A stretch of 64,000 nucleotides of DNA from Escherichia coli (GCF_050320075.1 NZ_CP190018.1), one strand, 5' to 3'. Shown: positions 23,717 through 56,472, counted from the stretch's first letter. Notes: a model not told the origin generated them from the sequence alone. A program made the numbers and translations.

Positions 23717-23792
23717 TGGTGCCGATAATAGGAGTCGAACCTACGACCTTCGCATTACGAATGCGCTGCTCTACCAACTGAGCTATATCGGC
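23717..23792 (-). tRNA. thrW: tRNA-Thr (anticodon CGU)
   Basis: 76-nt minus-strand sequence GCCGATATAGCTCAGTTGGTAGAGCAGCGCATTCGTAATGCG...CGGCACCA with cloverleaf. Confidence 0.95.
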
Positions 23793-45463: not shown

Positions 45464-45831
45464 CGAAAGCCCGGAGCCTGTCCATCATTCTGTGTAAATG
45501 CCTTTCTCAGAAGTGACCGTCAAGGCGGTCACCGAACTCGATAATAAAGCGACTCATCCCTATCCGCCAGTCCTGAAGTGGCATCGTCCATTTTTGCGAC
45601 GCTGACTGGAAAGCCAGCCACACCACTTTTTTCACCGACTCATCTGTCGGGAACACTTTCCGTTTCTTTATCGCATGTGTGATGATGCTATTCAGCGATT
45701 CGATTGCGTTAGTGGTGTAGATAACCTTGCGGATCGCCTCCGGGTACACGAAGAATGTGGCAACATTCGGCCAGTTTGCCCGCCAGCTGCGACTTATCTG
45801 CGGGTACCGTGCATCCCATTCCTTCCCAGGG
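45464..45831 (-). mobile_element. IS256-family transposase remnant (C-terminal fragment only)
   Basis: ORF 45507-45749 resembles the C-terminal end of mutator/IS256-type transposases; bracketed by a 15-bp direct repeat AGATTACGAAAGCCC at 45449-45463 and 45832-45846. Confidence 0.55.
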
Positions 45832-45836
45832 AAAGA

Positions 45837-46958
45837 TTACGAAAGCCCGCTCCCCGCAAGGACTGACGCCAGATAGTTTCTGTCCATGGCTGCTTTTCGC
45901 ATCTTACGTCTTAACCCTGCCTTGAATACCTTATCATTCGTCAAAATATTAATAGCGATGTGCCGTATCCCTGAAAATAATTCTGCTGCGTTTCCTCTTC
46001 TTATTTTGCAGTCGTCTTCATTCATTACCACGTCCAGACGCCAGTGCAGCTTATTCTCCACGTGCCAGTGGTTTCGGATTGCTGTGGCGAACTTCTCTGC
46101 GGTTAAATCAGCAGAACTAATATAATATCTGACCGTCATTTCTGGCTCTTTCTTTTGTTCTGCTATTATTGACCGAAAGGAGACTGCCACGCATAATTTC
46201 TTCAGACCTTTCCATTCAAACGTGAAATCAATAAGTTCATCAGGGACATCGCAAACAATGTGAAGACGGATTTCTTCTCTGCCGTGACTCTTTTCACTCA
46301 TTGCGTAACTGTCATGCTCTGGATTATTTAATTCTTTCAGCGGAAATTTTTCCTCGAAGGCTTTATTTAGCCGCCCCTGGTTTCCTTTTACAGCGAATAA
46401 ATAATCACCTCCCTGTTTTTGTATCTTCTCTGCAATATCTTTCTGGCAACCCATCGCATCAGTTGTGATGATTTTTCCTTTAATATCCAGCATGTTAAGA
46501 AGTTCTGGGATAGCTATAATTTCATTGGATTTCTCATCCGTCCTGATCTGTCCGATGACCAGACTGTGCATTGTTGAGAACGCACTAATGACATGAATCG
46601 CTCCCTTGCGGCGACTCTTGTCATAAGAATGCCGGAGTGTTTTTCCATCAATTGCGATGACGTCTTTATCATCTGAAGTATGGCAATCTCGCATCCAGTT
46701 AATAAAGCACTCGTGAAATTTTGCAGGACTGATACAGGATACAACTCTGGCGATGGTATCGTGAACAGGAATACCATTTTCAAAATCACCGTATTGTTTT
46801 AAAAAATCGAGATGTGTTTCCCCAAAATCCTCTATATCTTCCCAACCTTCCGCACCCGAAATAACGGCACAAATAGTCAACAGTAGAATATCCGATAATT
46901 TATGTTCCACTTTCCAGGCTTGTCTGTAATCGGGGATAATAGAAATATGCCCCATCAA
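45837..46958 (-). CDS. ISAs1-family (H-repeat) transposase
   Basis: 373 aa; H-rpt/ISAs1-type transposase; directly downstream of an Rhs toxin-immunity pair. Confidence 0.85.
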
Positions 46959-47193
46959 TTTTTTAAGTTCTATTTTGTTCTCCTTAATTATGTAAGGAGT
47001 ATTTGATCATGTATAAGCAATAAAAAACAGCTTTAGGTAATGAGGAATATCTCAATTTTTAAACATAAAATGCGAATTATTTAGTACAAAAAAGCAGCGT
47101 TACGTGATCTTTCCCTGCACTTCACCCTAACTTTAATTTAACTTCAAGAAGTATTAAGGCCTCAATAGCGAACTTAATACTTCTTAAAGAATA

Positions 47194-47571
47194 TCACTCC
47201 TGACCAAAATCTTTCCACACTAATGCATGAGACTTTGATTTATCACCCAAAAATTTACTTACATCTTTCCAAAGTAAAGAATTGCTATCGGTCGCAGTGA
47301 CTATTGCCTCTATAAGCCCTGTAGCTACAACTGTGGCCAATTCATCATCAATCGAGACCATACCATCTTCGACATGTTTAAATATTTTTTCTCTTTCAAT
47401 ATCACCCATTTCATAAAAATTTTTTACAATCGTTTTTCCAATCTGAGAGAACAACATAACCACCGGTGGAGTTTCTGGATGCCAGTATTCATTAGCTAAT
47501 GAGACTGTCTCAGACAAAACAGTGGAAAACGATGCCATTTTTTCTATATAATTAGCAATATATTGGTTCAT
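47194..47571 (-). CDS. Putative immunity protein for the Rhs C-terminal toxin
   Basis: 125 aa, low-GC ORF starting at the Rhs stop; position is the only evidence. Confidence 0.5.
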   Translation of the reverse strand: MNQYIANYIEKMASFSTVLSETVSLANEYWHPETPPVVMLFSQIGKTIVKNFYEMGDIEREKIFKHVEDGMVSIDDELATVVATGLIEAIVTATDSNSLLWKDVSKFLGDKSKSHALVWKDFGQE

Positions 47572-50500
47572 TACTTGCCTCCCAAAGCATTCTGTAAATC
47601 CTGAAGAACGTTTTCTGCTGCTGCTCGATCCCCTGGAGATGCTGTTGGATTCTTATCCAACCAATCCTGTAAAGCCCTTGTATAATCCTGTGCTTTCAAT
47701 ACATGTCCTCTACCACCAACTTTTTCACCTGTGGCCAATTCATAACGAACAGCATCTGCTGTGCTTCCACTTCCTACTTTTGCATTTGGCCGATAAAGAT
47801 CGTCTATAATATTTTTCAAATTTGAATCTGTAACGTCAGGTTTTCCCATCTTCTGTCGCAATTCATCTTTATACCGTTCATGCTGCATACGATCTCTTGC
47901 GCTATTCTCATCTTCTGGTCCCCATCCTCCCGGGCTTCCCGTACTGCCACCACCCAGGCAGTTCTTCTCTTCCTCCGTCAAATCCTTCCCGACATTTGGA
48001 TTCTCTTTTGATGAATCATCATTTCCAAACACGCTGGAAAAAGCACCATAGGGATCTCGCCAGAATTCCATTTGACTTTGTGCATTTAATAATTCGGCTT
48101 CACCCTGCATCTCCATACTTTTCTCAATCGCGTCCCCAACAGCCTCGCGATTGTTGTATATTATTATACCACCACCAATAACCACCGTACCGACTGCCGC
48201 ACCGACTAACATCCCCGGAGGGCCTCCTACCGAACCGATCTCTGTACCTACTTCAGAACCAGTTCCCATGGCAGTTAATGCTCCTGCGCCCAACGCCGCA
48301 CTTAATCCCAGCGGATCCAGCCGTTGCACCGGGTTCAGTGGATACGCATACAGGTTCCATCCCCCCTTCAGCCCAATCGGATCCTGGGTGATATACCTCC
48401 CCTGTAGCGGGTCATAGTACCGGTGACGGTTGTAGTACAGCCCCGACTCCTCATCATACTGCTGCCCCGGCAGACGGAGTGACTGTTGAAGGTGCTGCGT
48501 GCTTTCCTCTCCCAGCAGGTTTCCCCACTCGTCATACTCCCCGCGCCACGCCGTTTCCCCTTCCGGGCTGATAAGCGCCTGCGGCAGCCCACGGTGGTCA
48601 CAGTGGTAAAGATGAAGTTTCCTCTCCGGGATGTATTCCGCCTCCAGTTGCGCCGCCATCTGTTCCGCCGTCAACCCACACTGTGCAAGCCACTGCTGGC
48701 TTTCTTCACTCACGCTGCCCTGCCGCAGTTCCCGCTCCAGCCTCCCCAGCATCACCGCCAGCTCCGCCGGTAGCGTCACACCCGTGTCCTCCTGCAACAC
48801 CTCCGCCAGGCTACGGTGCCGCGCCTTCGCCTGTTCGCCATTCTCTGTTTCGATTCTCAGGAGCGGCGTGAAGCTCCCCGGCTGGTATACCGTCTGGATA
48901 CGCGTGGTGTCGGTCTGTACCGTCGTCAGCCTGTCGCCGTCCCACCCGTACCAGGTCACCTCCGGTTTACGCGACAGCGACATCCACCCCGTCAGGTCAC
49001 GCTCCCGCCGCCACACCCGTTTTCCCGTCCGGCGGCCCAGCGGGTCATAGAGGTAGCGGCTCTCCACCTGTGGCTCGCCGTGCTGTATCCGCGTGTAGAA
49101 CACCAGGCGGTGCTGGCTGTCGTAATGGTAGTGGTGCGTCCGCTCGTCGTGCATCCGTATCACCCCTTCCGGGATACGGTCCGTCTTCTCCGCCAGCCTG
49201 CCGTATTCATCGTAGCGGTAGACATAGTGCGCATCTTCCGTGATGCGGTTATCCGGCCATGCCGTGAGGGTGCTGTCCGGGTGCAGTTCCGGGTCCGGCA
49301 GCCGGTTTCCTGCCGGGTCCGTCGCATACGGGATATCAATGTCCAGGTTCGCTGCCGTGGTGTGGACGCCCGTCAGCCTTCCCGTGTCGCTGTAACGGTA
49401 CTCCCGGCTCTCCTGCGGGCCGCTGATGCGAATTAGCTGTCCGTTGTCGTTCCAGTCGTAGTCACGGTCAAGCTGCGGAAGGTTCAGGTGCCTGCTCCGG
49501 AGCTGGCCGCTGGTATTCCAGGCGGTGGCAAGCTCATATGCCTCCCCGCCGAAGCTGCGGGCCGTCTCACGGTGCAGCCGGTCCCGCGTGTACTCGACCA
49601 GTGGCGTACCACCCAGCTTCATTCCCGCAAGATAACCGCTGCCATACGTCAGCCACTCCACCGGCGGCAGACCGTCCGGCTCCTGACGGGTCGCCAGCCC
49701 CTGTTCGCTGTACGCGTGCTTCGTCTCATGCTCCCACAGCATCTCCCCCGTCTCCGGGTTCTCCACCGTCTGCCGTTCGCCCGTCAGGCGGCCTTTATCG
49801 TCGTGGCCGTAGTGGACCGCCACACGGTGGCCTTCGCTGATATGGCTGATTTCTGTCAGCCAGCCGTGCTCATCATACTGCCACTGCTCCGCCGGGTCGC
49901 CGTTCACCGTCCGGTGCGTGATGCGGTCCGACGCATCGTAATGCCAGAGGGTGATAAGTCCCTCGTCTTCACTGTGGACAAGCTGCCCTGTGGCGCTGTA
50001 CCGGTAACGCTGCGTCCTGCCGTCAAAGCCGCGCTGCTCCGTCAGCCTGTCCACCGGGTCATACCGGAACGTGGACTGGCTGCCGTTCTCGTTGGTCAGC
50101 ACGGTGATGCGCCCGGCAGCGTCATACCCCATGCTGCGCGTCAGACCGCCTTCCGTCACACTCACCGGACGCCCGCGTTTATCATATTCGATGGTGCTGC
50201 GTTTACCGTCCGGTGATATCGTTGCTGTCAGGTCGCCTGCGGCGCTGTACTCATAACGGGTTTCACGCCCCTGCGCATCCTTCTGACTGACCAGTTGGCC
50301 TCGCGGGTTATAACTGCTGTAAGTGCTGATGCCTTCCTCCCGGTGAACGGCGATTTGTTGACCGTACCGGTCATACTCATACCGCGTCATGTACCCCGAG
50401 CAGTCCGTGAAGGCCCGAAGCTGACCGTACCGGTTTCGCGTTATTCTCCGCGTCACCCCGATTCCGTCTTCCACCGCGCCGGGCAGGCTACTGCGGGGGG

Positions 50501-50792
50501 AGTCATAAAACCAGCGCGTAATGTTACCGTTGCGCGAGATCTCTTCTGCCAGTCGGCCCTGACGGTCATATTTCCGGCTGCTGCGTAAACCATCCGGATA
50601 TGTCACTGAAGTCAGTTGCAACTGGCTGTTGTAACCATACCGTACCGTCCTGCCGTCCGGCAGTATCACTGAAGTCAGCTTTCCAGACGCCATATGCAGC
50701 CGGTACTCCGTCCGCCGTCCTGCCGCATCCGTCTGCGCCTTCAGCCTCCCCCGCCTCATCATACTCGCTGCGGGTGATGCTCCCGTCGGCAT
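47571..50792 (-). CDS. Rhs polymorphic toxin, core YD-repeat region and variable C-terminal toxin domain (downstream part of a frameshifted gene)
   Basis: 1073 aa; YD repeats; DPxGL boundary (RLDPLGL) then Gly-zipper segment and about 150 aa unassigned C-terminal domain. Confidence 0.85.
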
Positions 50793-52071
50793 GCTCCTTC
50801 TTCACCACACGCTTCAGGCCACCCCCGCCTTCCGTGTACAGCACCTCCCGCCGGTTCAGGCTGTCCGTGATGGTCACACGGTCCTGCCCGTACTCAAAGC
50901 GGTAGTCCAGCCCCTCCGGGTTGACCTGCTCCGTCACCCGCCCGGTATCATCATACCGGTAGCGGCTCTCCGGCCTCCCTGCATAATGGTGCGCCACCAT
51001 CCGCCCGGCGTGCTCCGCATCATAAGTAAACCCGCGCACCTGCGTCCCGCTGCGGTCATACACCGCCCGCAGTTCTCCGCTGGCCGTGTACGTATAGCGC
51101 GCCAGCGGCGCAGTCGGCTGTTCATCCGGGTATGCCGGGTCGTGTGTCAGCCACACCGCCTCCAGCCGGATACCGTTATCGGCACCGTATTCTGTACCGG
51201 CGGGCAGCGTATCGGGGAAAACCTGAGAAGAGGAAACAGAACGGGGACCGGCTGGAGAAGATAAAGAAGAGGCGCGCTGTTTACGGAAGGCTTCCGCCCG
51301 CTGCGCCTGCGTGCTCAGCGCCAGGTGAAAACAGCGGCCCGCGCCGTCCGTCACCCCCGTCACCGCACCCGCCACGTCACCCTCTGCCGCCCGGTGGAAG
51401 GCCAGCGTCCGCCCGAAGCCGTCCACCACGCCCGTCAGCACCCGGTATGCGGGCGGCTCCGGCGGCAGCACCTCGTCCGCCCCCGGCACCCGCTCCGGCC
51501 AGCCGAGCACCAGCCACTGCCCGGTTGTGCTGGCAGCCATCATATAGATGTGTGGACTCAGACGGACCGCTTCCGGCAACGCCCGCCAGAGCCGCGCAAG
51601 CGGGTGGCCTTTGTGCTGTTTCAGCACCCCGCACCGCGCCAGCCAGAACGACTCGCTGCGGCTGTAGCTTATCTCGCCGGGAAACAGGGGTTCAAAGTGA
51701 ATGCTCCTGCCGCCGCTGTCGTTGAGTATCAGGCCTTCATCGCGTATCTGTAAGCGGATATCGAAGGGGGCTTTCCAGCCGGGACCAAACCCCCCCACCG
51801 GCGCGGGCGTCCTGGTCCGGTAGCTGCTGTAGGCGCGGAAAAGAACAAACGGCAGCGGGCCGGACAGTGCCAGGTCGGTTTCAGCAGGCAGCACCTTCGC
51901 TCCCAGCAGCGGGTTTACCGGATTGCCATATTTCGGCGTGGCTTCCCCTGTGGGACACACCGAGCAGGCCACACCGGTTGGCGCACCTATCAGCACCCCT
52001 GCTGAACCCTGCACAATATCCAGTCCCTTGCGGGTCATGTCACCCTGCCGCGCCGCCGGTTTTCCACCCAT
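50566..52071 (-). CDS. PAAR-domain N-terminal part of the Rhs effector (upstream part of the frameshifted gene)
   Basis: 501 aa starting [13 protein letters not shown] (PAAR-like); overlaps the downstream ORF at 50566-50792 in another frame. Confidence 0.8.
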
Positions 52072-52146
52072 GAATCAATTCCTTCTGCTTTTAATATGGT
52101 TTATCTGGTCACTGCACCAGTTCCGTTTTAATTTTTTGCACCTGAC

Positions 52147-54288
52147 TCAAAATTGCCGCATATCCGGCATTCCGGGGGGTAAATCTTTCGGCACAGGCGC
52201 ATCCGGTACAGGTTGTGTGGCACCACAGTTCCAGTTAATCACCGGCGCATCACCGTTCACATCCGACTCTCCTTCCAGATGAATGTGCGTACCATTGAGA
52301 AATATGCTTCCGTCCTTCGTCAGCACCAACCTTGCCTTACCGCAGCAGAGTTCCAGATGCTCACCGGCAGAATAAACTGCTGTTTGTCCGGTGTTTTCCT
52401 TCATCGTCTTGCCCACCGAGAAGGTGACGTTATTCCCTACATTGACGCTGTAGCCCATTCCCACCATCAGTGATTTATGCAGCCCTACCTGTGAGGACTG
52501 CAACAACGCCACCGAGGTATTCATGATGCCGCCTACCGTCGTCTGGTAAGCCACGCCCACCGTCAGCGCACGAATGATCCCCACCTTTTCAACCTGGTTT
52601 GAACCCACTTTGACAATCTGGTTGCTGCCTACCGTTTCCACCTGGTTGACACCAACCGTCTGTATCTGATTAACGCCAATGTTCTGGATCTGGTTATTGG
52701 TAACGGTGATCGCCTGGTTGTTACCTATTTTTTCGGCATGGTTGTTTATCACATCAGTGGTGCGGTTATTCAGCACCTCGGTGTTCATGTTCTTCTGCGC
52801 GTGGATGTAGACCTGTTCTTTCCCTGTCGCATCGTCAAACTTCAGTTCATTAAACCCGCTGCCCTTATAGGTTTTTGAACGAATGGTCATCTGCGTCTTT
52901 GTTCCCGGCAGGCTGCCGGGGGTGCGGTTTTCCTGGTGGTAGGTGCGCCCCATAATAATCGGCTGGTCCGGATCGCCGTTGAGGAAGTCCACAATGACTT
53001 CCTGACCCACACGCGGTATCGCCAGGTTGCCAAAGCCGGTGCCTGCCCACGCCTGTGCCACACGGATCCAGCATGAACTGTCCTGGTTTGACGGGTTATA
53101 GCGGTCCCAGTTAAATTTCACCCGCACGCGGCCATGTTCATCACAGAAGATTTCTTCTCCTGCCGGTCCCGTCACGACGGCGCTCTGCGGGCCGTCCACC
53201 AGCGGTTTCAGCAACGGCTGTGGCCGCCATGTTCTGTCTGCCGGTATTACCGCAAAGTGGTTATTCAGCGTGGTACCTGAACCCCTGCGTCCCGGCACCG
53301 CCTGCGGCTGCTCGCCGTGCAGTTCACTTGCCACCACCTGCCATTCCCGGTTCAGGTTCGCCTGCGGATGCCCCGTCAGCGCAATTCGCCGTCCCGGCCA
53401 TATCTCCGGCGAACGGCTTGTTCCGCGCGCCACTTCTGCGTTGTTTCGCCAGCCATCCATCTGCCAGCAGGCAAAGTTCTGCCCGTGGGCACCCTTGAAA
53501 CGTCCGGGGTAGTCATACACTTCATACTGTGTGCGCTGGTAATCCTGGTGCTGGCCTTCCTGATCAAAACGCCCTGCCCAGCCGGGTCGTTTAAAGGTGT
53601 AGTCTTTGGTCACCACGGAAGATGGGCGGATTTGTGCGCTGTAGAGGAACTGGCTGATGCATAGGGTGCTCACCTCGGTACGGGTGTTCGGATTCCAGGG
53701 GATCTCAAAGGACTCCGGCAGATAACGCACGGTGTCGCACAGGACCAGGCTCTGGTCGGTACTTTTTTGCGCGTGCTCCTCATAAAAGAAGATGCCTTCC
53801 TCCGCCGCCATCCGGCACAGGAAATCGTAATCGGTTTCGCCGTACTGGACACAAAACTCACGGGAAGGATGCGGCTCGCTGAACAGCGGACTCCACTCGG
53901 TCACCCCGTTTTCTTTCAGGATCGTCGCGAGTATGCTTTCGATGTCCTCATTCTGGAAGATACGGAAGTTCTGGCGCAGCCCTGTGCGCCACAGCGGTGG
54001 GCACACCTTCATGCTGTACAGCATCTGGTTTTTGTCGTTCTCCCCCAGTTCAAACCAGGTCACCACACCTTTCACCCGGCGCTGTACGTCATCGCCCTGC
54101 CATACCGTCAGGTAGGCCATTTTGTCCAGCACCTGCGCAAATTCAAGGGAGAGAAACTGCTGGCTGACCAGAGAGAGATCGAGGGAAAAGAGCGAAGAGA
54201 GTGACTGGTTCAGATGAAAGGAGACCACCGCAAACGCGTCCGGTGGCAGGCCGTCCACTTCCAGCGTGAAACGTAATCCGGTTGACAT
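52147..54288 (-). CDS. vgrG: Type VI secretion spike protein VgrG
   Basis: 713 aa; gp27/gp5-like with C-terminal beta-helix repeats. Confidence 0.9.
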   Translation of the reverse strand: MSTGLRFTLEVDGLPPDAFAVVSFHLNQSLSSLFSLDLSLVSQQFLSLEFAQVLDKMAYLTVWQGDDVQRRVKGVVTWFELGENDKNQMLYSMKVCPPLWRTGLRQNFRIFQNEDIESILATILKENGVTEWSPLFSEPHPSREFCVQYGETDYDFLCRMAAEEGIFFYEEHAQKSTDQSLVLCDTVRYLPESFEIPWNPNTRTEVSTLCISQFLYSAQIRPSSVVTKDYTFKRPGWAGRFDQEGQHQDYQRTQYEVYDYPGRFKGAHGQNFACWQMDGWRNNAEVARGTSRSPEIWPGRRIALTGHPQANLNREWQVVASELHGEQPQAVPGRRGSGTTLNNHFAVIPADRTWRPQPLLKPLVDGPQSAVVTGPAGEEIFCDEHGRVRVKFNWDRYNPSNQDSSCWIRVAQAWAGTGFGNLAIPRVGQEVIVDFLNGDPDQPIIMGRTYHQENRTPGSLPGTKTQMTIRSKTYKGSGFNELKFDDATGKEQVYIHAQKNMNTEVLNNRTTDVINNHAEKIGNNQAITVTNNQIQNIGVNQIQTVGVNQVETVGSNQIVKVGSNQVEKVGIIRALTVGVAYQTTVGGIMNTSVALLQSSQVGLHKSLMVGMGYSVNVGNNVTFSVGKTMKENTGQTAVYSAGEHLELCCGKARLVLTKDGSIFLNGTHIHLEGESDVNGDAPVINWNCGATQPVPDAPVPKDLPPGMPDMRQF

Positions 54289-54497: not shown

Positions 54498-55016
54498 TTA
54501 TGCTTCCAGCGGTGCGCGCCAGTCGTCGGCACCGGAGGTGCCAGACTTGACGTGTTCCCACTCTATTTTGCGGTAGGCCAGTGAAACTTCGAGCAACTGG
54601 GTGAACTCGCGTTTCGCCGGATCCTGGCAATGCGGCATATGCAGTTTCATATCGACAATCGTCGAATCGGTCAGGCGGGTGGTGAAATAATGCTCCTGTT
54701 TGCCTTCCACAGAGGTACGCCACCAGTGAAGTTCAGTGGTTGGCAGCATTTCGCCGGAGGCCAGTGCGTTGTACATCAGCGGAACAGCTTTGTTCAGCGC
54801 CACGGTAAAAATGAACGGCTTGTGAGCACGCTGACCCGCAGGCTGGCCGGACTGAGGATCGGTCGGGACAGTAACGTTATGCAGGAATTCCTGCACCAGC
54901 ATCTCGTCTTCGTGCCCCTGCACATAGATGTTGCCGACAGAATCAGCGGTAAATGCACCTGCAGTAATATTTCCCTGGGTCTGACCAGTGATGGAGATAT
55001 AACACGGTGTTGGCAT
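54498..55016 (-). CDS. hcp: Type VI secretion tube protein Hcp
   Basis: 172 aa; Hcp-family sequence upstream of vgrG. Confidence 0.9.
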   Translation of the reverse strand: MPTPCYISITGQTQGNITAGAFTADSVGNIYVQGHEDEMLVQEFLHNVTVPTDPQSGQPAGQRAHKPFIFTVALNKAVPLMYNALASGEMLPTTELHWWRTSVEGKQEHYFTTRLTDSTIVDMKLHMPHCQDPAKREFTQLLEVSLAYRKIEWEHVKSGTSGADDWRAPLEA

Positions 55017-55712: not shown

Positions 55713-56213
55713 ATGAGCAAAAAATTTGAAGGCAGCGTCGCGCCTCGCGAGCGTATAAATATATCCTATGTCCCGAAGACGGACGGCCAGACGGCTGAAG
55801 TGGAGCTTCCGCTTAACATGCTCGTTGTCGGCGATACCGGAAATACGCAGGAGACATCCCCACTGGATGAACGTCAGGCAGTTTCCGTTAACAAGCACAA
55901 TTTCGGTGCGGTGATGGCTGAAGCAGCCATTGGCCTCAATTTTACCGTCCCCGCCACGCTGAAGGGAAGCACAACGGACGATGAACTGAATGTGGCGCTG
56001 AATATCAAGTCACTGGATGATTTTTCACCGGACAGCGTGGCCCGGCAGGTTCCGGAAGTTAATAAATTGCTGGAATTGCGTGAAGCACTGACTGCGCTGA
56101 AGGGGCCGATGGGCAACCTTCCGGCATTCCGTACCCAGCTCCAGGCATTGCTGGAAAATGAGGAGTCCCGCGAGCAGTTGCTCAAAGAAATCGGCCAAGT
56201 GAGTGGGAAATAA
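55713..56213 (+). CDS. tssB: T6SS sheath small subunit TssB (VipA)
   Basis: 166 aa; MSKKFEGSVAPRERINISY... Confidence 0.9.
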   Translation: MSKKFEGSVAPRERINISYVPKTDGQTAEVELPLNMLVVGDTGNTQETSPLDERQAVSVNKHNFGAVMAEAAIGLNFTVPATLKGSTTDDELNVALNIKSLDDFSPDSVARQVPEVNKLLELREALTALKGPMGNLPAFRTQLQALLENEESREQLLKEIGQVSGK

Positions 56214-56247
56214 CCACCACTATTTCATTAAACAGGGTTATCCAGAC

Positions 56248-56472
56248 ATGGCGGCACACAAAAATATCTCCGGGAAACACCCCCTCTCTGACGAAGACAT
56301 TTTGCAGGCGGTTTACCGGGTATGTTTCAGCCCGTCCGGTGAAATCAACCGGGATGGCGTGGATGCGCTGATTACAACACTGGATCGCCGTATCAGTGAT
56401 CTATTGGATGAGATTATCCATCTTTGTGAGTTTCAGCAGAGCGCGCCGTACTGGCGGCGCGTACTTCACTGA
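56248..56472 (+). CDS. Small hypothetical ORF between tssB and tssC
   Basis: 74 aa from the internal ATG of ORF 56203-56472; no recognisable family. Confidence 0.3.
   Translation: MAAHKNISGKHPLSDEDILQAVYRVCFSPSGEINRDGVDALITTLDRRISDLLDEIIHLCEFQQSAPYWRRVLH

What the first reader, a model, noticed from the sequence alone, without database searches (positions are those of the whole stretch)
47194..52071. PAAR-Rhs T6SS effector with an unassigned C-terminal toxin domain, cognate immunity candidate, and a homopolymer frameshift
Downstream of hcp-vgrG is an Rhs gene beginning with a PAAR-like motif and carrying YD repeats to the DPxGL boundary (RLDPLGL). After that, GC content drops and the sequence becomes a Gly-zipper segment plus about 150 aa I cannot assign, followed by a 125-aa ORF in the immunity position and an ISAs1/H-rpt transposase. 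The gene is split into two overlapping ORFs (50566-52071 and 47571-50792). The break maps to a run of five C on the forward strand at 50748-50752 (G5 on the coding strand): removing one G restores ...[22 protein letters not shown]... So this is a pseudogene, a homopolymer sequencing error, or a slippage-prone site.
Basis: partly seen in the sequence, partly recalled or inferred. Interest (0 to 1): 0.6.

Follow-up and report, generated by a model that had tools for sequence, protein, structure and literature searches.

The report
Frameshifted Rhs toxin gene, unnamed toxin
This is an E. coli type VI secretion "Rhs" toxin gene that a real one-base insertion has switched off in a whole lineage, while its protective immunity gene stays intact; the small toxin module at its end belongs to a large, widespread toxin family that no database has named and whose activity is unknown.

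Summary
The hcp-vgrG-rhs-immunity-ISAs1 order, the two overlapping ORFs, the DPxGL boundary, the GC drop and the G5 run at 50748-50752 are all there.

The frameshift is not an assembly error. The exact G5 context occurs in 130 of 5,426 complete E. coli genomes, and RefSeq already annotates the gene as a frameshifted pseudogene. At least two near-identical loci (strains Ch1 and TUM1886) keep G4 and an intact 1,499-aa protein, which in Ch1 is identical to the repaired window protein. Other lineages have lost the same effector through unrelated stops, frameshifts or deletions, yet keep the immunity gene.

The C-terminal region has three parts:
- a hydrophobic Gly-zipper sub-domain;
- a flexible linker shared with CdiA-CT(EC536);
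- a 92-108-aa five-helix toxin domain.

The two sub-domains recombine independently at the linker, as in CDI toxins.

The toxin domain matches nothing in Pfam, NCBIfam, PADLOC or PHROGs, and no PDB sequence. It defines a family of at least 2,356 clusters (50% identity), always C-terminal, on Rhs, CdiA and other polymorphic-toxin scaffolds. The 125-aa ORF is a weak DUF7674 member, and homologues follow the toxin in all three unrelated loci that held a full-length toxin gene.

Activity is unknown. There is a weak fold resemblance to the Ntox28 tRNase.

Verdict: an ordinary pseudogene carrying an uncharacterised toxin-immunity family.

The parts
54498..55016 (-). hcp (T6SS tube protein)
   Evidence: ORF. 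The identical locus in strain 144 is annotated 'Hcp family type VI secretion system effector'.
52147..54288 (-). vgrG (T6SS spike), immediately upstream of rhs
   Evidence: 713-aa ORF, annotated 'type VI secretion system tip protein VgrG'.
50753..52071 (-). rhs 5' part in the native frame (residues 1-440): KPAAR motif, DUF6531, first YD repeats
   Evidence: Pfam gives DUF6531 at residues 49-126 (E 1.8e-17) and RHS_repeat hits, but no PAAR_motif hit.
50748..50752 (-). G5 homopolymer (C5 on + strand): a +1 G insertion relative to the G4 of intact alleles; frameshift at codon 441
   Evidence: Read directly. The exact G5 95-mer occurs in 130 genomes and the exact G4 94-mer in 12. G4 is present in Ch1, TUM1886, WP7, EC052 and OX442407.
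50566..50747 (-). Out-of-frame tail of the upstream ORF (60 codons to its stop at 50566); in the native frame the same bases encode YD repeats
   Evidence: the 501-aa ORF ends at 50566; first stop in frame 0 at codon 502.
48303..50747 (-). rhs 3' part in the native frame: YD-repeat shell and Rhs-associated core, ending in DPIGL...DPLGL (48369-48383 and 48303-48317)
   Evidence: NCBIfam RHS_core covers residues 1-1256 at 2,500 bits, with YD_repeat_2x and Rhs_assc_core at 1179-1256. PDB homologues: Tse5 at E 1.8e-116 and RhsA at 2e-81.
48015..48302 (-). C-terminal region sub-domain 1 (residues 1257-1352): Gly/Ala-rich hydrophobic 'Gly-zipper' segment plus a short helical region; candidate membrane-entry module
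   Evidence: Kyte-Doolittle peak of 2.1 over [19 protein letters not shown]. The same sub-domain is fused to a different toxin in the 150-aa orphan ORF WP_000960006.1; about 600 genomes carry a 90-95% identical copy of this stretch, and the fusion was checked in one locus, L007. It is replaced by a different hydrophobic sub-domain upstream of the same toxin at the rhsE-like locus.
47898..48014 (-). Flexible linker ([35 protein letters not shown]), the recombination junction between the two sub-domains
   Evidence: It matches the linker of CdiA-CT(EC536) in PDB entries 5j43, 5j5v and 8zyc (E about 1e-5 with the helix that follows, 0.01 alone). The junctions are seen.
47574..47897 (-). Toxin domain (residues 1392-1499): predicted five-helix domain, unnamed family. 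Conserved residues: Y1426, R1427, G1433-S-G-S-T1437, E1444, H1456, K1459 and the [12 protein letters not shown] motif
   Evidence: Alignments A1-A3. AF2 model with pLDDT 85.6. 2,356 cluster representatives, always C-terminal among the 150 listed. No Pfam, NCBIfam, PADLOC, PHROG or PDB sequence match.
47194..47571 (-). Cognate immunity gene (125 aa, soluble, weak DUF7674 match). Its start overlaps the rhs stop (TAATG) and it has its own GGGAGG Shine-Dalgarno sequence
   Evidence: Pfam DUF7674 at E 5.7e-4. Homologues lie directly downstream of the toxin in L005, L009 and L010. The sequence was read.
45837..46973 (-). ISAs1-family (ISEc1, 'H-rpt') transposase flanking the Rhs element
   Evidence: ORF, annotated 'ISAs1-like element ISEc1 family transposase' in the identical locus. 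An ISAs1 copy also flanks the module at the second locus.

Best explanation
The region is a vgrG-linked Rhs (YD-shell) type VI secretion effector gene, inactivated by insertion of one G (G4 to G5) at codon 441. The mutation is real and is carried by a whole E. coli lineage.

Inferred mechanism for the intact allele, from the solved homologues Tse5, RhsA and Tre23:
- The N-terminal region mounts the protein on the VgrG spike.
- The YD shell encloses the C-terminal region.
- The aspartyl-protease motif DPIGL...DPLGL cuts the C-terminal region free after Leu1256.
- The T6SS fires the package into a neighbouring cell.

The released 243-aa C-terminal region has a hydrophobic Gly-zipper sub-domain and a toxin domain joined by a flexible linker. 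I infer that the Gly-zipper sub-domain helps the toxin cross the target's inner membrane, as CdiA-CT entry domains do. The toxin is a 92-108-aa five-helix domain that acts in the cytoplasm. It belongs to a large unnamed polymorphic-toxin family. Its most likely activity is an RNA- or nucleotide-directed enzyme that uses the conserved His, Lys and Glu and a GSGST phosphate-binding-type loop. This step is speculative.

The 125-aa soluble DUF7674-family protein encoded next door is the cognate immunity protein.

In the window strain, translation stops 60 codons after the frameshift, so no loadable, encapsulated effector is made. The immunity gene has its own ribosome-binding site and is conserved, so it probably still protects against relatives that carry the intact allele.
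For: Shown:
- Gene order and ORFs.
- The frameshift geometry; the repaired product is identical to the intact WP_045146456.1 of strain Ch1.
- G5 in 130 genomes against exact G4 in 12, with every other Rhs homologue listed or fetched showing the G4 spacing.
- 58 of the 60 best-matching genomes carry G5.
- PGAP labels the gene 'frameshifted'.
- Full-length RHS_core match and homology to solved T6SS Rhs effectors.
- Modular swapping of the two C-terminal sub-domains at the linker, and linker homology to CdiA-CT(EC536).
- The toxin family is large and always C-terminal, on Rhs, FHA/CdiA (VENN), PT-TG, CpnT-like, T7SS-signal and Hint scaffolds.
- Homologues of the 125-aa ORF lie immediately downstream of the toxin in a CdiA locus (47% identity, E 2e-25), a giant Rhs locus (E 5e-5 to 5e-11) and a VgrG/DUF4280 locus (DUF7674, E 1.6e-4).
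- Independent inactivation elsewhere, with the immunity gene kept.

Inferred:
- A cytoplasmic target, because the immunity protein has no signal peptide or transmembrane segment.
Against: - Pfam does not detect a PAAR domain.
- The entry-domain role of the Gly-zipper segment rests only on analogy and on its modularity.
- I did not map G4 and G5 on a genome phylogeny. Ch1 and TUM1886 could therefore be revertants rather than carriers of the ancestral state. Their loci differ from the window by only 2-4 SNPs.
Confidence: 0.8

Rival explanations
1. The extra G is a homopolymer sequencing or assembly error, and the gene is really intact in this strain.
For: Homopolymer indels are a common error class. 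The break is a single base in a G run. Two near-identical loci are assembled with G4.
Against: The exact G5 95-mer is present in 130 independent complete genomes from many laboratories, hosts and countries. At least 12 genomes match the whole 5,051-nt region at the full score and many more differ by about one base. Every other Rhs homologue listed or fetched was assembled with G4 at the same site, so there is no systematic bias towards G5.
Confidence: 0.03
2. The G tract is a functional switch: either phase variation by slipped-strand mispairing, or a programmed +1 ribosomal or transcriptional slip, lets a fraction of cells make full-length effector.
For: The break sits on a homopolymer. Both G4 and G5 exist among almost identical loci that differ by 2-4 SNPs in 8-12 kb. 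A second in-frame G5 run lies 70 nt upstream.
Against: Five bases is shorter than typical contingency tracts of 7 or more (established knowledge). A +1 shift would move the ribosome from the common codon GAG onto the rare codon AGG, with no recognisable stimulator (read; inference). PGAP treats it as a plain frameshift. Other lineages inactivated the gene by unrelated lesions, which fits decay rather than regulation.
Confidence: 0.07
3. The C-terminal region is a membrane-depolarising, pore-forming toxin (like Tse5-CT or the CDI ionophores). On this view the Gly-zipper is the killing part, and the last 108 aa are accessory.
For: There is a Gly/Ala-rich hydrophobic stretch with GxxxG spacing right after DPLGL. 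Tse5 is the closest solved Rhs homologue for the shell. The CDI ionophore domains are also five-helix bundles joined to entry domains by linkers (PMC11630599).
Against: - The immunity protein is soluble and polar, whereas ionophore immunity proteins are small and very hydrophobic (PMC11630599).
- The part that co-varies with the immunity family across Rhs, CdiA and VgrG loci is the polar C-terminal domain, not the Gly-zipper.
- The Gly-zipper sub-domain is found joined to a different toxin, with a DUF3969 gene next downstream.
- The toxin domain has many invariant polar residues, as enzymes do.
Confidence: 0.06
4. The split gene is still used: the downstream part or the toxin domain alone is expressed from internal starts and, with the immunity protein, acts as an intracellular toxin-antitoxin-like module.
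For: Salmonella Rhs elements have been reported to behave as type II TA modules (PMC7043789, title and abstract only). A Met at the start of the toxin domain is nearly invariant across the family, and many genomes have a 92-aa ORF called from it. Promoter-like hexamers occur inside the AT-rich C-terminal region.
Against: The promoter matches are consensus hits in AT-rich DNA, 12 found against 6 expected. The 92-aa ORFs are most simply gene-caller products on pseudogenes and orphan fragments. The conserved Met may be structural. There are no expression data.
Confidence: 0.08

Closest known systems
T6SS Rhs effectors with solved structures: Tse5 (P. aeruginosa, 8cp6), RhsA (P. protegens, 7q97), Tre23 (7pq5), Salmonella bongori Rhs (8qj*)
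   Same: They share the YD-repeat shell, the Rhs-associated core with the DPxGL...DPxGL autoprotease motif, the position next to vgrG, and a polymorphic C-terminal toxin followed by an immunity gene.
   Different: The toxin domain is unrelated to any of theirs. The window copy is frameshifted. Pfam detects no PAAR domain here.
CdiA-CT(EC536/UPEC536): FtsH-dependent entry domain plus the Ntox28 (PF15605) CysK-activated tRNA anticodon nuclease
   Same: Both have a bipartite layout (N-terminal sub-domain, flexible linker, small all-helical toxin). The linker sequence NPN[VI]GKDLT.(E/A)EK..LGG.GSG is clearly homologous. It is the top Foldseek PDB hit for the toxin model. A His at the start of the third long helix can be aligned with the catalytic H178 (PMC11724271).
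   Different: The Pfam Ntox28 model does not match, and profile-profile comparison is not significant. The Ntox28 signature D, K[DE], [DN]HxxE (PMC3482391) is replaced by YR, GSGST, E, HxxK and DRAAAEN. There is no C-terminal GYGI tail. The N-terminal sub-domains are unrelated, and the delivery system is T6SS rather than T5SS.
E. coli Rhs-CT effector-immunity modules catalogued by Ma et al. 2017 (Rhs-CT1 to CT10, plus an 'unknown' clan), as summarised in PMC6730261
   Same: The same gene architecture and the same species; T6SS-cluster-encoded Rhs proteins with polymorphic C-termini.
   Different: The named CT1-CT10 carry recognised domains (metallopeptidase, REase, RNase and others). This one carries none and would fall in the 'unknown' clan. 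I could not read the original paper to check whether it is listed there.
DUF7674 (PF24722)
   Same: The 125-aa ORF matches weakly (E 5.7e-4). The gene downstream of a distant toxin homologue has a precomputed DUF7674 hit.
   Different: The match is marginal for the E. coli protein. No paper in the searched library mentions this family, so naming it adds no functional information.

Membership tests
Rhs / YD-repeat T6SS effector (NCBIfam NF041261 RHS_core) | Full-length match to the RHS_core model above its curated cut-off | tested here: met
   2,500.4 bits against a cut-off of 2,000, covering residues 1-1256, on the intact Ch1 allele, which is identical to the repaired window protein.
Rhs / YD-repeat T6SS effector (NCBIfam NF041261 RHS_core) | YD repeats and an Rhs-associated core ending in the DPxGL...DPxGL autoprotease motif | tested here: met
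   TIGR01643 at E 1.4e-48; TIGR03696 at residues 1179-1256; DPIGL-(17 aa)-DPLGL read in the translation.
Rhs / YD-repeat T6SS effector (NCBIfam NF041261 RHS_core) | One uninterrupted reading frame | tested here: not met
   The +1 G at 50748-50752 gives a stop after codon 501. RefSeq flags the gene as 'frameshifted'.
Rhs / YD-repeat T6SS effector (NCBIfam NF041261 RHS_core) | Genetic linkage to vgrG/hcp and a T6SS cluster | tested here: met
   hcp and vgrG lie directly upstream; tssB, C, E, F and G are divergent.
Rhs / YD-repeat T6SS effector (NCBIfam NF041261 RHS_core) | N-terminal PAAR domain | tested here: inconclusive
   The literal KPAAR is at residues 4-8, but Pfam PAAR_motif gives no hit at E<=10 and only DUF6531 is found. 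The CDD PAAR_RHS model was not available. Reviews describe E. coli Rhs-CTs as PAAR-bearing.
Rhs / YD-repeat T6SS effector (NCBIfam NF041261 RHS_core) | T6SS-dependent secretion and killing | not testable with these tools
   Needs competition assays with an intact-allele strain.
Ntox28 tRNase (PF15605, CdiA-CT EC536) | Match to the Pfam model | tested here: not met
   No hit at E<=10 for the window toxin or for any of 27 diverse family members, whereas true EC536 relatives carry PF15605.
Ntox28 tRNase (PF15605, CdiA-CT EC536) | Same fold | tested here: inconclusive
Ntox28 tRNase (PF15605, CdiA-CT EC536) | Catalytic D155, W176, H178, E181 and the C-terminal GYGI CysK-binding tail | tested here: not met
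   Only the His can be aligned. The residue aligned to D155 varies across the family. HxxE is replaced by HxxK, and the protein ends in GGK. The residue roles come from PMC11724271.
DUF7674 (PF24722) as the immunity family | Match to the Pfam model | tested here: inconclusive
   E 5.7e-4, 20.4 bits, covering residues 24-119. Whether this passes Pfam's own threshold was not reported.
Cognate toxin-immunity pair of a polymorphic toxin system | A homologous small gene immediately downstream of the toxin in unrelated loci and delivery systems | tested here: met
   All three full-length-toxin loci examined have one: L009 (CdiA, 47% identity, E 2e-25), L010 (Rhs, E 5e-5 to 5e-11) and L005 (VgrG-linked, DUF7674, E 1.6e-4). 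A fourth locus, L006, holds only a 78-aa toxin fragment and its neighbouring ORF is unrelated.
Cognate toxin-immunity pair of a polymorphic toxin system | Toxicity of the domain and specific neutralisation by the partner | not testable with these tools
   Needs co-expression assays.
CdiA-CT-type bipartite toxin region (entry domain + toxin) | The two sub-domains are joined by a flexible linker and recombine independently | tested here: met
   The same toxin sits behind a different hydrophobic sub-domain at the rhsE-like locus. The same Gly-zipper sub-domain sits in front of a different toxin in WP_000960006.1. The linker is homologous to that of CdiA-CT(EC536).
CdiA-CT-type bipartite toxin region (entry domain + toxin) | Import depends on a specific inner-membrane protein | not testable with these tools
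   Needs selection of resistant target mutants.
Phase-variable contingency locus | Long homopolymer, with tract-length heterogeneity among close relatives | tested here: not met
   The tract is 5 nt. Among the 60 closest genomes, 58 are G5 and 2 are G4, with no other lengths. Totals are 130 against 12.

The most novel reading that the evidence does not exclude
The 92-108-aa C-terminal domain founds a biochemically new class of cytoplasm-acting polymorphic toxin. It is a five-helix enzyme built around a GSGST phosphate-binding-type loop and an E/H/K centre, and it is not a diverged Ntox28 tRNase. It is used by T6SS Rhs, CDI and Gram-positive or actinobacterial toxin scaffolds alike, always with DUF7674-type immunity. 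The Gly-zipper sub-domain would show that T6SS-delivered Rhs toxins use CDI-like, swappable inner-membrane entry modules.
Probability: 0.25. Interest if true: 0.6.

Novelty: new member of a known kind. Interest (0 to 1): 0.35.

Why it matters
The frameshifted gene is routine: it is already flagged in RefSeq, and it is one more case of a T6SS effector decaying while its immunity gene is kept. Three results have some value.

1. The toxin domain and its immunity partner form a large family (at least 2,356 clusters at 50% identity) that is phylogenetically broad and completely unannotated. E. coli strains carry natural intact alleles (Ch1, TUM1886, WP7-S17-ESBL-04) and natural null alleles, so toxicity and target can be tested directly.

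2. The C-terminal region shows the same two-module, linker-joined organisation as CDI toxins, even sharing the linker sequence. This bears on the open question of how T6SS-delivered cytoplasmic toxins cross the inner membrane.

3. About 7% of complete E. coli genomes (402 of 5,426) carry the module. Four of the seven copies I examined in detail are disrupted, with the immunity gene intact in all seven, which is a useful case for immunity-gene retention.

Tried and rejected
- **Family libraries.** Pfam, NCBIfam, PADLOC and PHROGs scans of the toxin domain, of 27 diverse family members and of 28 full-length relatives gave no toxin family.
- **PDB by sequence.** With the whole C-terminal region, only the linker and the following helix of CdiA-CT(EC536) match. 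With a toxin-only profile the best E is 0.29, so nothing matches.
- **Homology to Ntox28.** hhalign of the family profile against the EC536 sequence gave probability 0.6%. Against an Ntox28 profile it gave E 0.27. I therefore reject this as a membership claim and keep it only as a lead.
- **HEPN (Rx4-6H), Fic/Doc, RES, ART and P-loop kinase motifs.** I considered these from memory and rejected them because the conserved-residue pattern or the all-helical fold does not fit. They were not tested with models beyond Pfam.
- **Literature.** Searches for the motif ([10 protein letters not shown]), the accessions WP_001077735 and WP_045146456, and DUF7674/PF24722 found no papers. Ma et al. 2017 is not in the library; I saw only reviews of it.
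- **Failed look-ups.** The look-up of encoding contigs returned nothing for P0042 and P0070. L006 held only a 78-aa toxin fragment with an unrelated neighbour.
- **Relatedness of G4 and G5 strains.** SNP comparison of the loci was too sparse (2-4 SNPs) to decide between ancestral G4 and reversion.

Full report
**1. Observation**

The window is E. coli chromosome. On the minus strand the order is hcp (54498-55016), vgrG (52147-54288), a 501-aa ORF (50566-52071), an overlapping 1,073-aa ORF (47571-50792), a 125-aa ORF (47194-47571) and an ISAs1-family transposase (45837-46958). Beyond these lie yafV and ivy.

The coding strand reads GAT GAG GCG GGG GAG GCT, with five G at 50752-50748. Removing one G joins the two ORFs into a 1,499-aa protein that reads ...[22 protein letters not shown]....

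The Rhs core ends with DPIGL-(17 aa)-DPLGL. GC then falls from 0.60-0.66 in the core to 0.42-0.48 in the C-terminal region and 0.32-0.35 in the small ORF.

**2. Is the frameshift real?**

- At least 12 complete E. coli genomes match 47100-52150 at the full score, and many more differ by about one base. RefSeq/PGAP annotates the gene in strain 144 as 'RHS element core protein, frameshifted'.
- I searched a 3,756-nt query with one G removed. One genome (strain Ch1) matched perfectly. A second (TUM1886) matched with one mismatch over the same 3,756-nt span. The other 58 of the top 60 span 3,757 nt, meaning G5.
- I then took a census with about 95-nt probes centred on the run. The exact G5 context occurs in 130 genomes and the exact G4 context in 12. 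Every other Rhs homologue listed or fetched has the G4 spacing.
- Ch1 and TUM1886 carry annotated intact genes, WP_045146456.1 and WP_264831625.1. The Ch1 protein is identical to the repaired window protein.

The extra G is therefore a genuine, derived mutation carried by a lineage, not an artefact of this assembly. Strain names suggest ST38 and relatives, but I did not type them.

A 5-nt tract, the near absence of length variation, and the codon context all argue against a regulated switch. A +1 shift would move the ribosome from a common GAG codon onto a rare AGG codon. The loci of the G4 strains differ from the window by only 2-4 SNPs, so I cannot say whether they are ancestral or revertant.

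**3. The same effector decays repeatedly**

The toxin-immunity module (47194-47900) occurs in 402 of 5,426 genomes, at two chromosomal sites.

- At the yafV/T6SS site, strains P15-25 and E308 have lost hcp, vgrG and the 5' part of rhs but keep the toxin end and the immunity gene.
- At a second, rhsE-like site (nhoA-yddH-pptA), the copy in OX442407 has an internal stop at codon 571 plus a stop inside the toxin. The copy in EC052 has a frameshift near codon 1278. Both have G4 at the window's site.
- WP7-S17-ESBL-04 has an intact 1,506-aa allele.

This is independent loss of the effector with retention of immunity.

**4. What the gene is**

The intact allele scores 2,500 bits on NCBIfam RHS_core (cut-off 2,000). 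YD repeats and the Rhs-associated core lie at residues 1179-1256. It is homologous to the solved T6SS Rhs effectors Tse5 (E 1.8e-116), RhsA, Tse15, the S. bongori Rhs and Tre23.

Pfam finds DUF6531 and RHS repeats in the N-terminal 501 aa, but no PAAR domain. The 'PAAR' label therefore rests on the literal KPAAR motif and on the literature for E. coli Rhs proteins.

**5. Anatomy of the C-terminal region**

The 243 residues after DPLGL divide as follows.

1. Residues 1-96 are a Gly/Ala-rich hydrophobic stretch (hydropathy peak 2.1 over [19 protein letters not shown]), followed by a short helical segment.
2. Residues 97-135 are a linker, [35 protein letters not shown].
3. Residues 136-243 are the toxin domain.

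The linker is the only part with a PDB sequence match. It matches the linker of CdiA-CT(EC536) in 5j43, 5j5v and 8zyc. I confirmed this by reading cdiA of strain 536.

The linker is also a recombination junction.
- At the rhsE-like locus the same toxin follows a different hydrophobic sub-domain, and the sequences converge at ...[13 protein letters not shown].
- In the locus I read (L007), the window's Gly-zipper sub-domain and linker continue into a different C-terminus within a 150-aa orphan ORF, WP_000960006.1, with a DUF3969 gene next downstream. About 600 genomes carry a 90-95% identical copy of this stretch, also annotated as a hypothetical protein.

This is the entry-domain/toxin-domain organisation established for CDI toxins (PMC11630599, PMC11724271). 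By analogy I infer that the hydrophobic sub-domain helps the toxin cross the target's inner membrane. That step is not shown.

**6. The toxin domain**

No Pfam, NCBIfam, PADLOC or PHROG model matches it. None of 27 diverse relatives matches any Pfam family either. A toxin-only profile finds no PDB sequence (best E 0.29).

A profile search of 1.84 billion cluster representatives finds 2,356 relatives at E<=1e-3, of which 1,588 are at <=1e-10. In the 150 listed, the domain is always at the extreme C-terminus.

The scaffolds include:
- Rhs proteins and a filamentous-haemagglutinin/CdiA protein;
- PT-VENN, PT-TG and Hint proteins;
- CpnT-like N-terminal and T7SS-signal proteins from Actinobacteria.

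The conserved residues are Tyr-Arg, the Gly-Ser-Gly-Ser-Thr loop, Glu, His-x-x-Lys, Trp, Asn-Pro and Asp-Arg-Ala-Ala-Ala-Glu-Asn. AlphaFold2 gives a confident five-helix model (pLDDT 85.6).

I therefore do not file it under Ntox28. I keep 'small helical RNase-like enzyme' as the leading guess, at roughly 30%.

**7. The immunity gene**

The 125-aa protein is polar, with no signal peptide or membrane segment. It matches DUF7674 weakly (E 5.7e-4).

The decisive evidence is synteny. In three unrelated metagenomic loci the gene immediately after the toxin is a homologue:
- downstream of a 2,634-aa CdiA (47% identity, E 2e-25);
- downstream of a 2,622-aa Rhs (E 5e-5 to 5e-11);
- next to VgrG/DUF4280 (precomputed DUF7674 hit; E 1.6e-4 pairwise).

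A soluble cytoplasmic immunity protein implies a cytoplasmic target, which follows from established knowledge of T6SS effector-immunity pairs. It also argues against the pore-forming reading, because the ionophore immunity proteins are small and very hydrophobic.

In the window, the immunity start overlaps the rhs stop (TAATG) and is preceded by GGGAGG. It can therefore be translated without the upstream gene.

**8. Verdict**

The region is a real, lineage-fixed pseudogene of an ordinary vgrG-linked Rhs effector, already flagged in RefSeq.

The part worth following up is the cargo. It is an unnamed, very widespread toxin domain with a conserved DUF7674-type immunity partner, carried in a CDI-like two-module C-terminal region. 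Natural intact and null alleles are available in E. coli for testing.

Nothing found places it outside the known logic of polymorphic toxin systems.

Noticed in passing
window 47846-47848 (Met1408, start of MGKPDV...), within the toxin domain: A Met at the start of the toxin domain is nearly invariant across very distant family members (invariant in alignment A2). Many genomes have a 92-aa ORF called from exactly this Met and named 'type IV secretion protein Rhs', a misnomer; cluster P0001 is seen on at least 1,000 contigs. It could be structural, or it could mark an internal start.
   Followed up: partly
window 50822-50826: A second run of five G on the coding strand (GGC GGG GGT, encoding the GGGG of YTEGGGGLK) lies about 70 nt upstream of the frameshift and is in frame. 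It is another potential slippage site in the same gene.
   Followed up: no
L007 8853-9305 and 8393-8587 (NZ_OX442407.1); the same genes in L012: At the rhsE-like locus an orphan 150-aa ORF (WP_000960006.1) carries the window's Gly-zipper sub-domain and linker fused to a different short C-terminus. A DUF3969 gene follows about 265 nt downstream. About 600 E. coli genomes carry a 90-95% identical copy of the Gly-zipper stretch. It is probably another toxin-immunity remnant.
   Followed up: partly
L002 (strain P15-25) and L003 (strain E308), yafV-T6SS locus: In these lineages a deletion removed hcp, vgrG and the 5' part of rhs (and much of the T6SS cluster in E308). The toxin end and the immunity gene were left next to the ISAs1 element.
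   Followed up: partly
window 45507-45749 (-): A truncated transposase remnant, annotated 'transposase, incomplete' in strain 144, lies between yafV and the ISEc1 copy. This points to earlier IS activity at the edge of the Rhs element.
   Followed up: no
window 46516: The window has A where strains 144, Ch1 and TUM1886 all have G. This is a private SNP inside the ISEc1 transposase gene.
   Followed up: no
window 47806-47834 and 47557-47585 (- strand): Sigma-70-like hexamer pairs lie inside the AT-rich toxin-coding region, upstream of the immunity gene. They are consensus matches only (12 found against about 6 expected in the scanned region). They could drive immunity expression independently of rhs.
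   Followed up: no
window 23717-23792 (-): A tRNA-Thr(CGT) gene is the only Rfam or ARAGORN hit in the 64-kb window. It is unrelated to the finding.
   Followed up: no
window 56203-56472 (+): A small ORF sits between tssB and tssC. A 225-nt part of it is annotated as a hypothetical protein in strain 144. I did not examine it.
   Followed up: no
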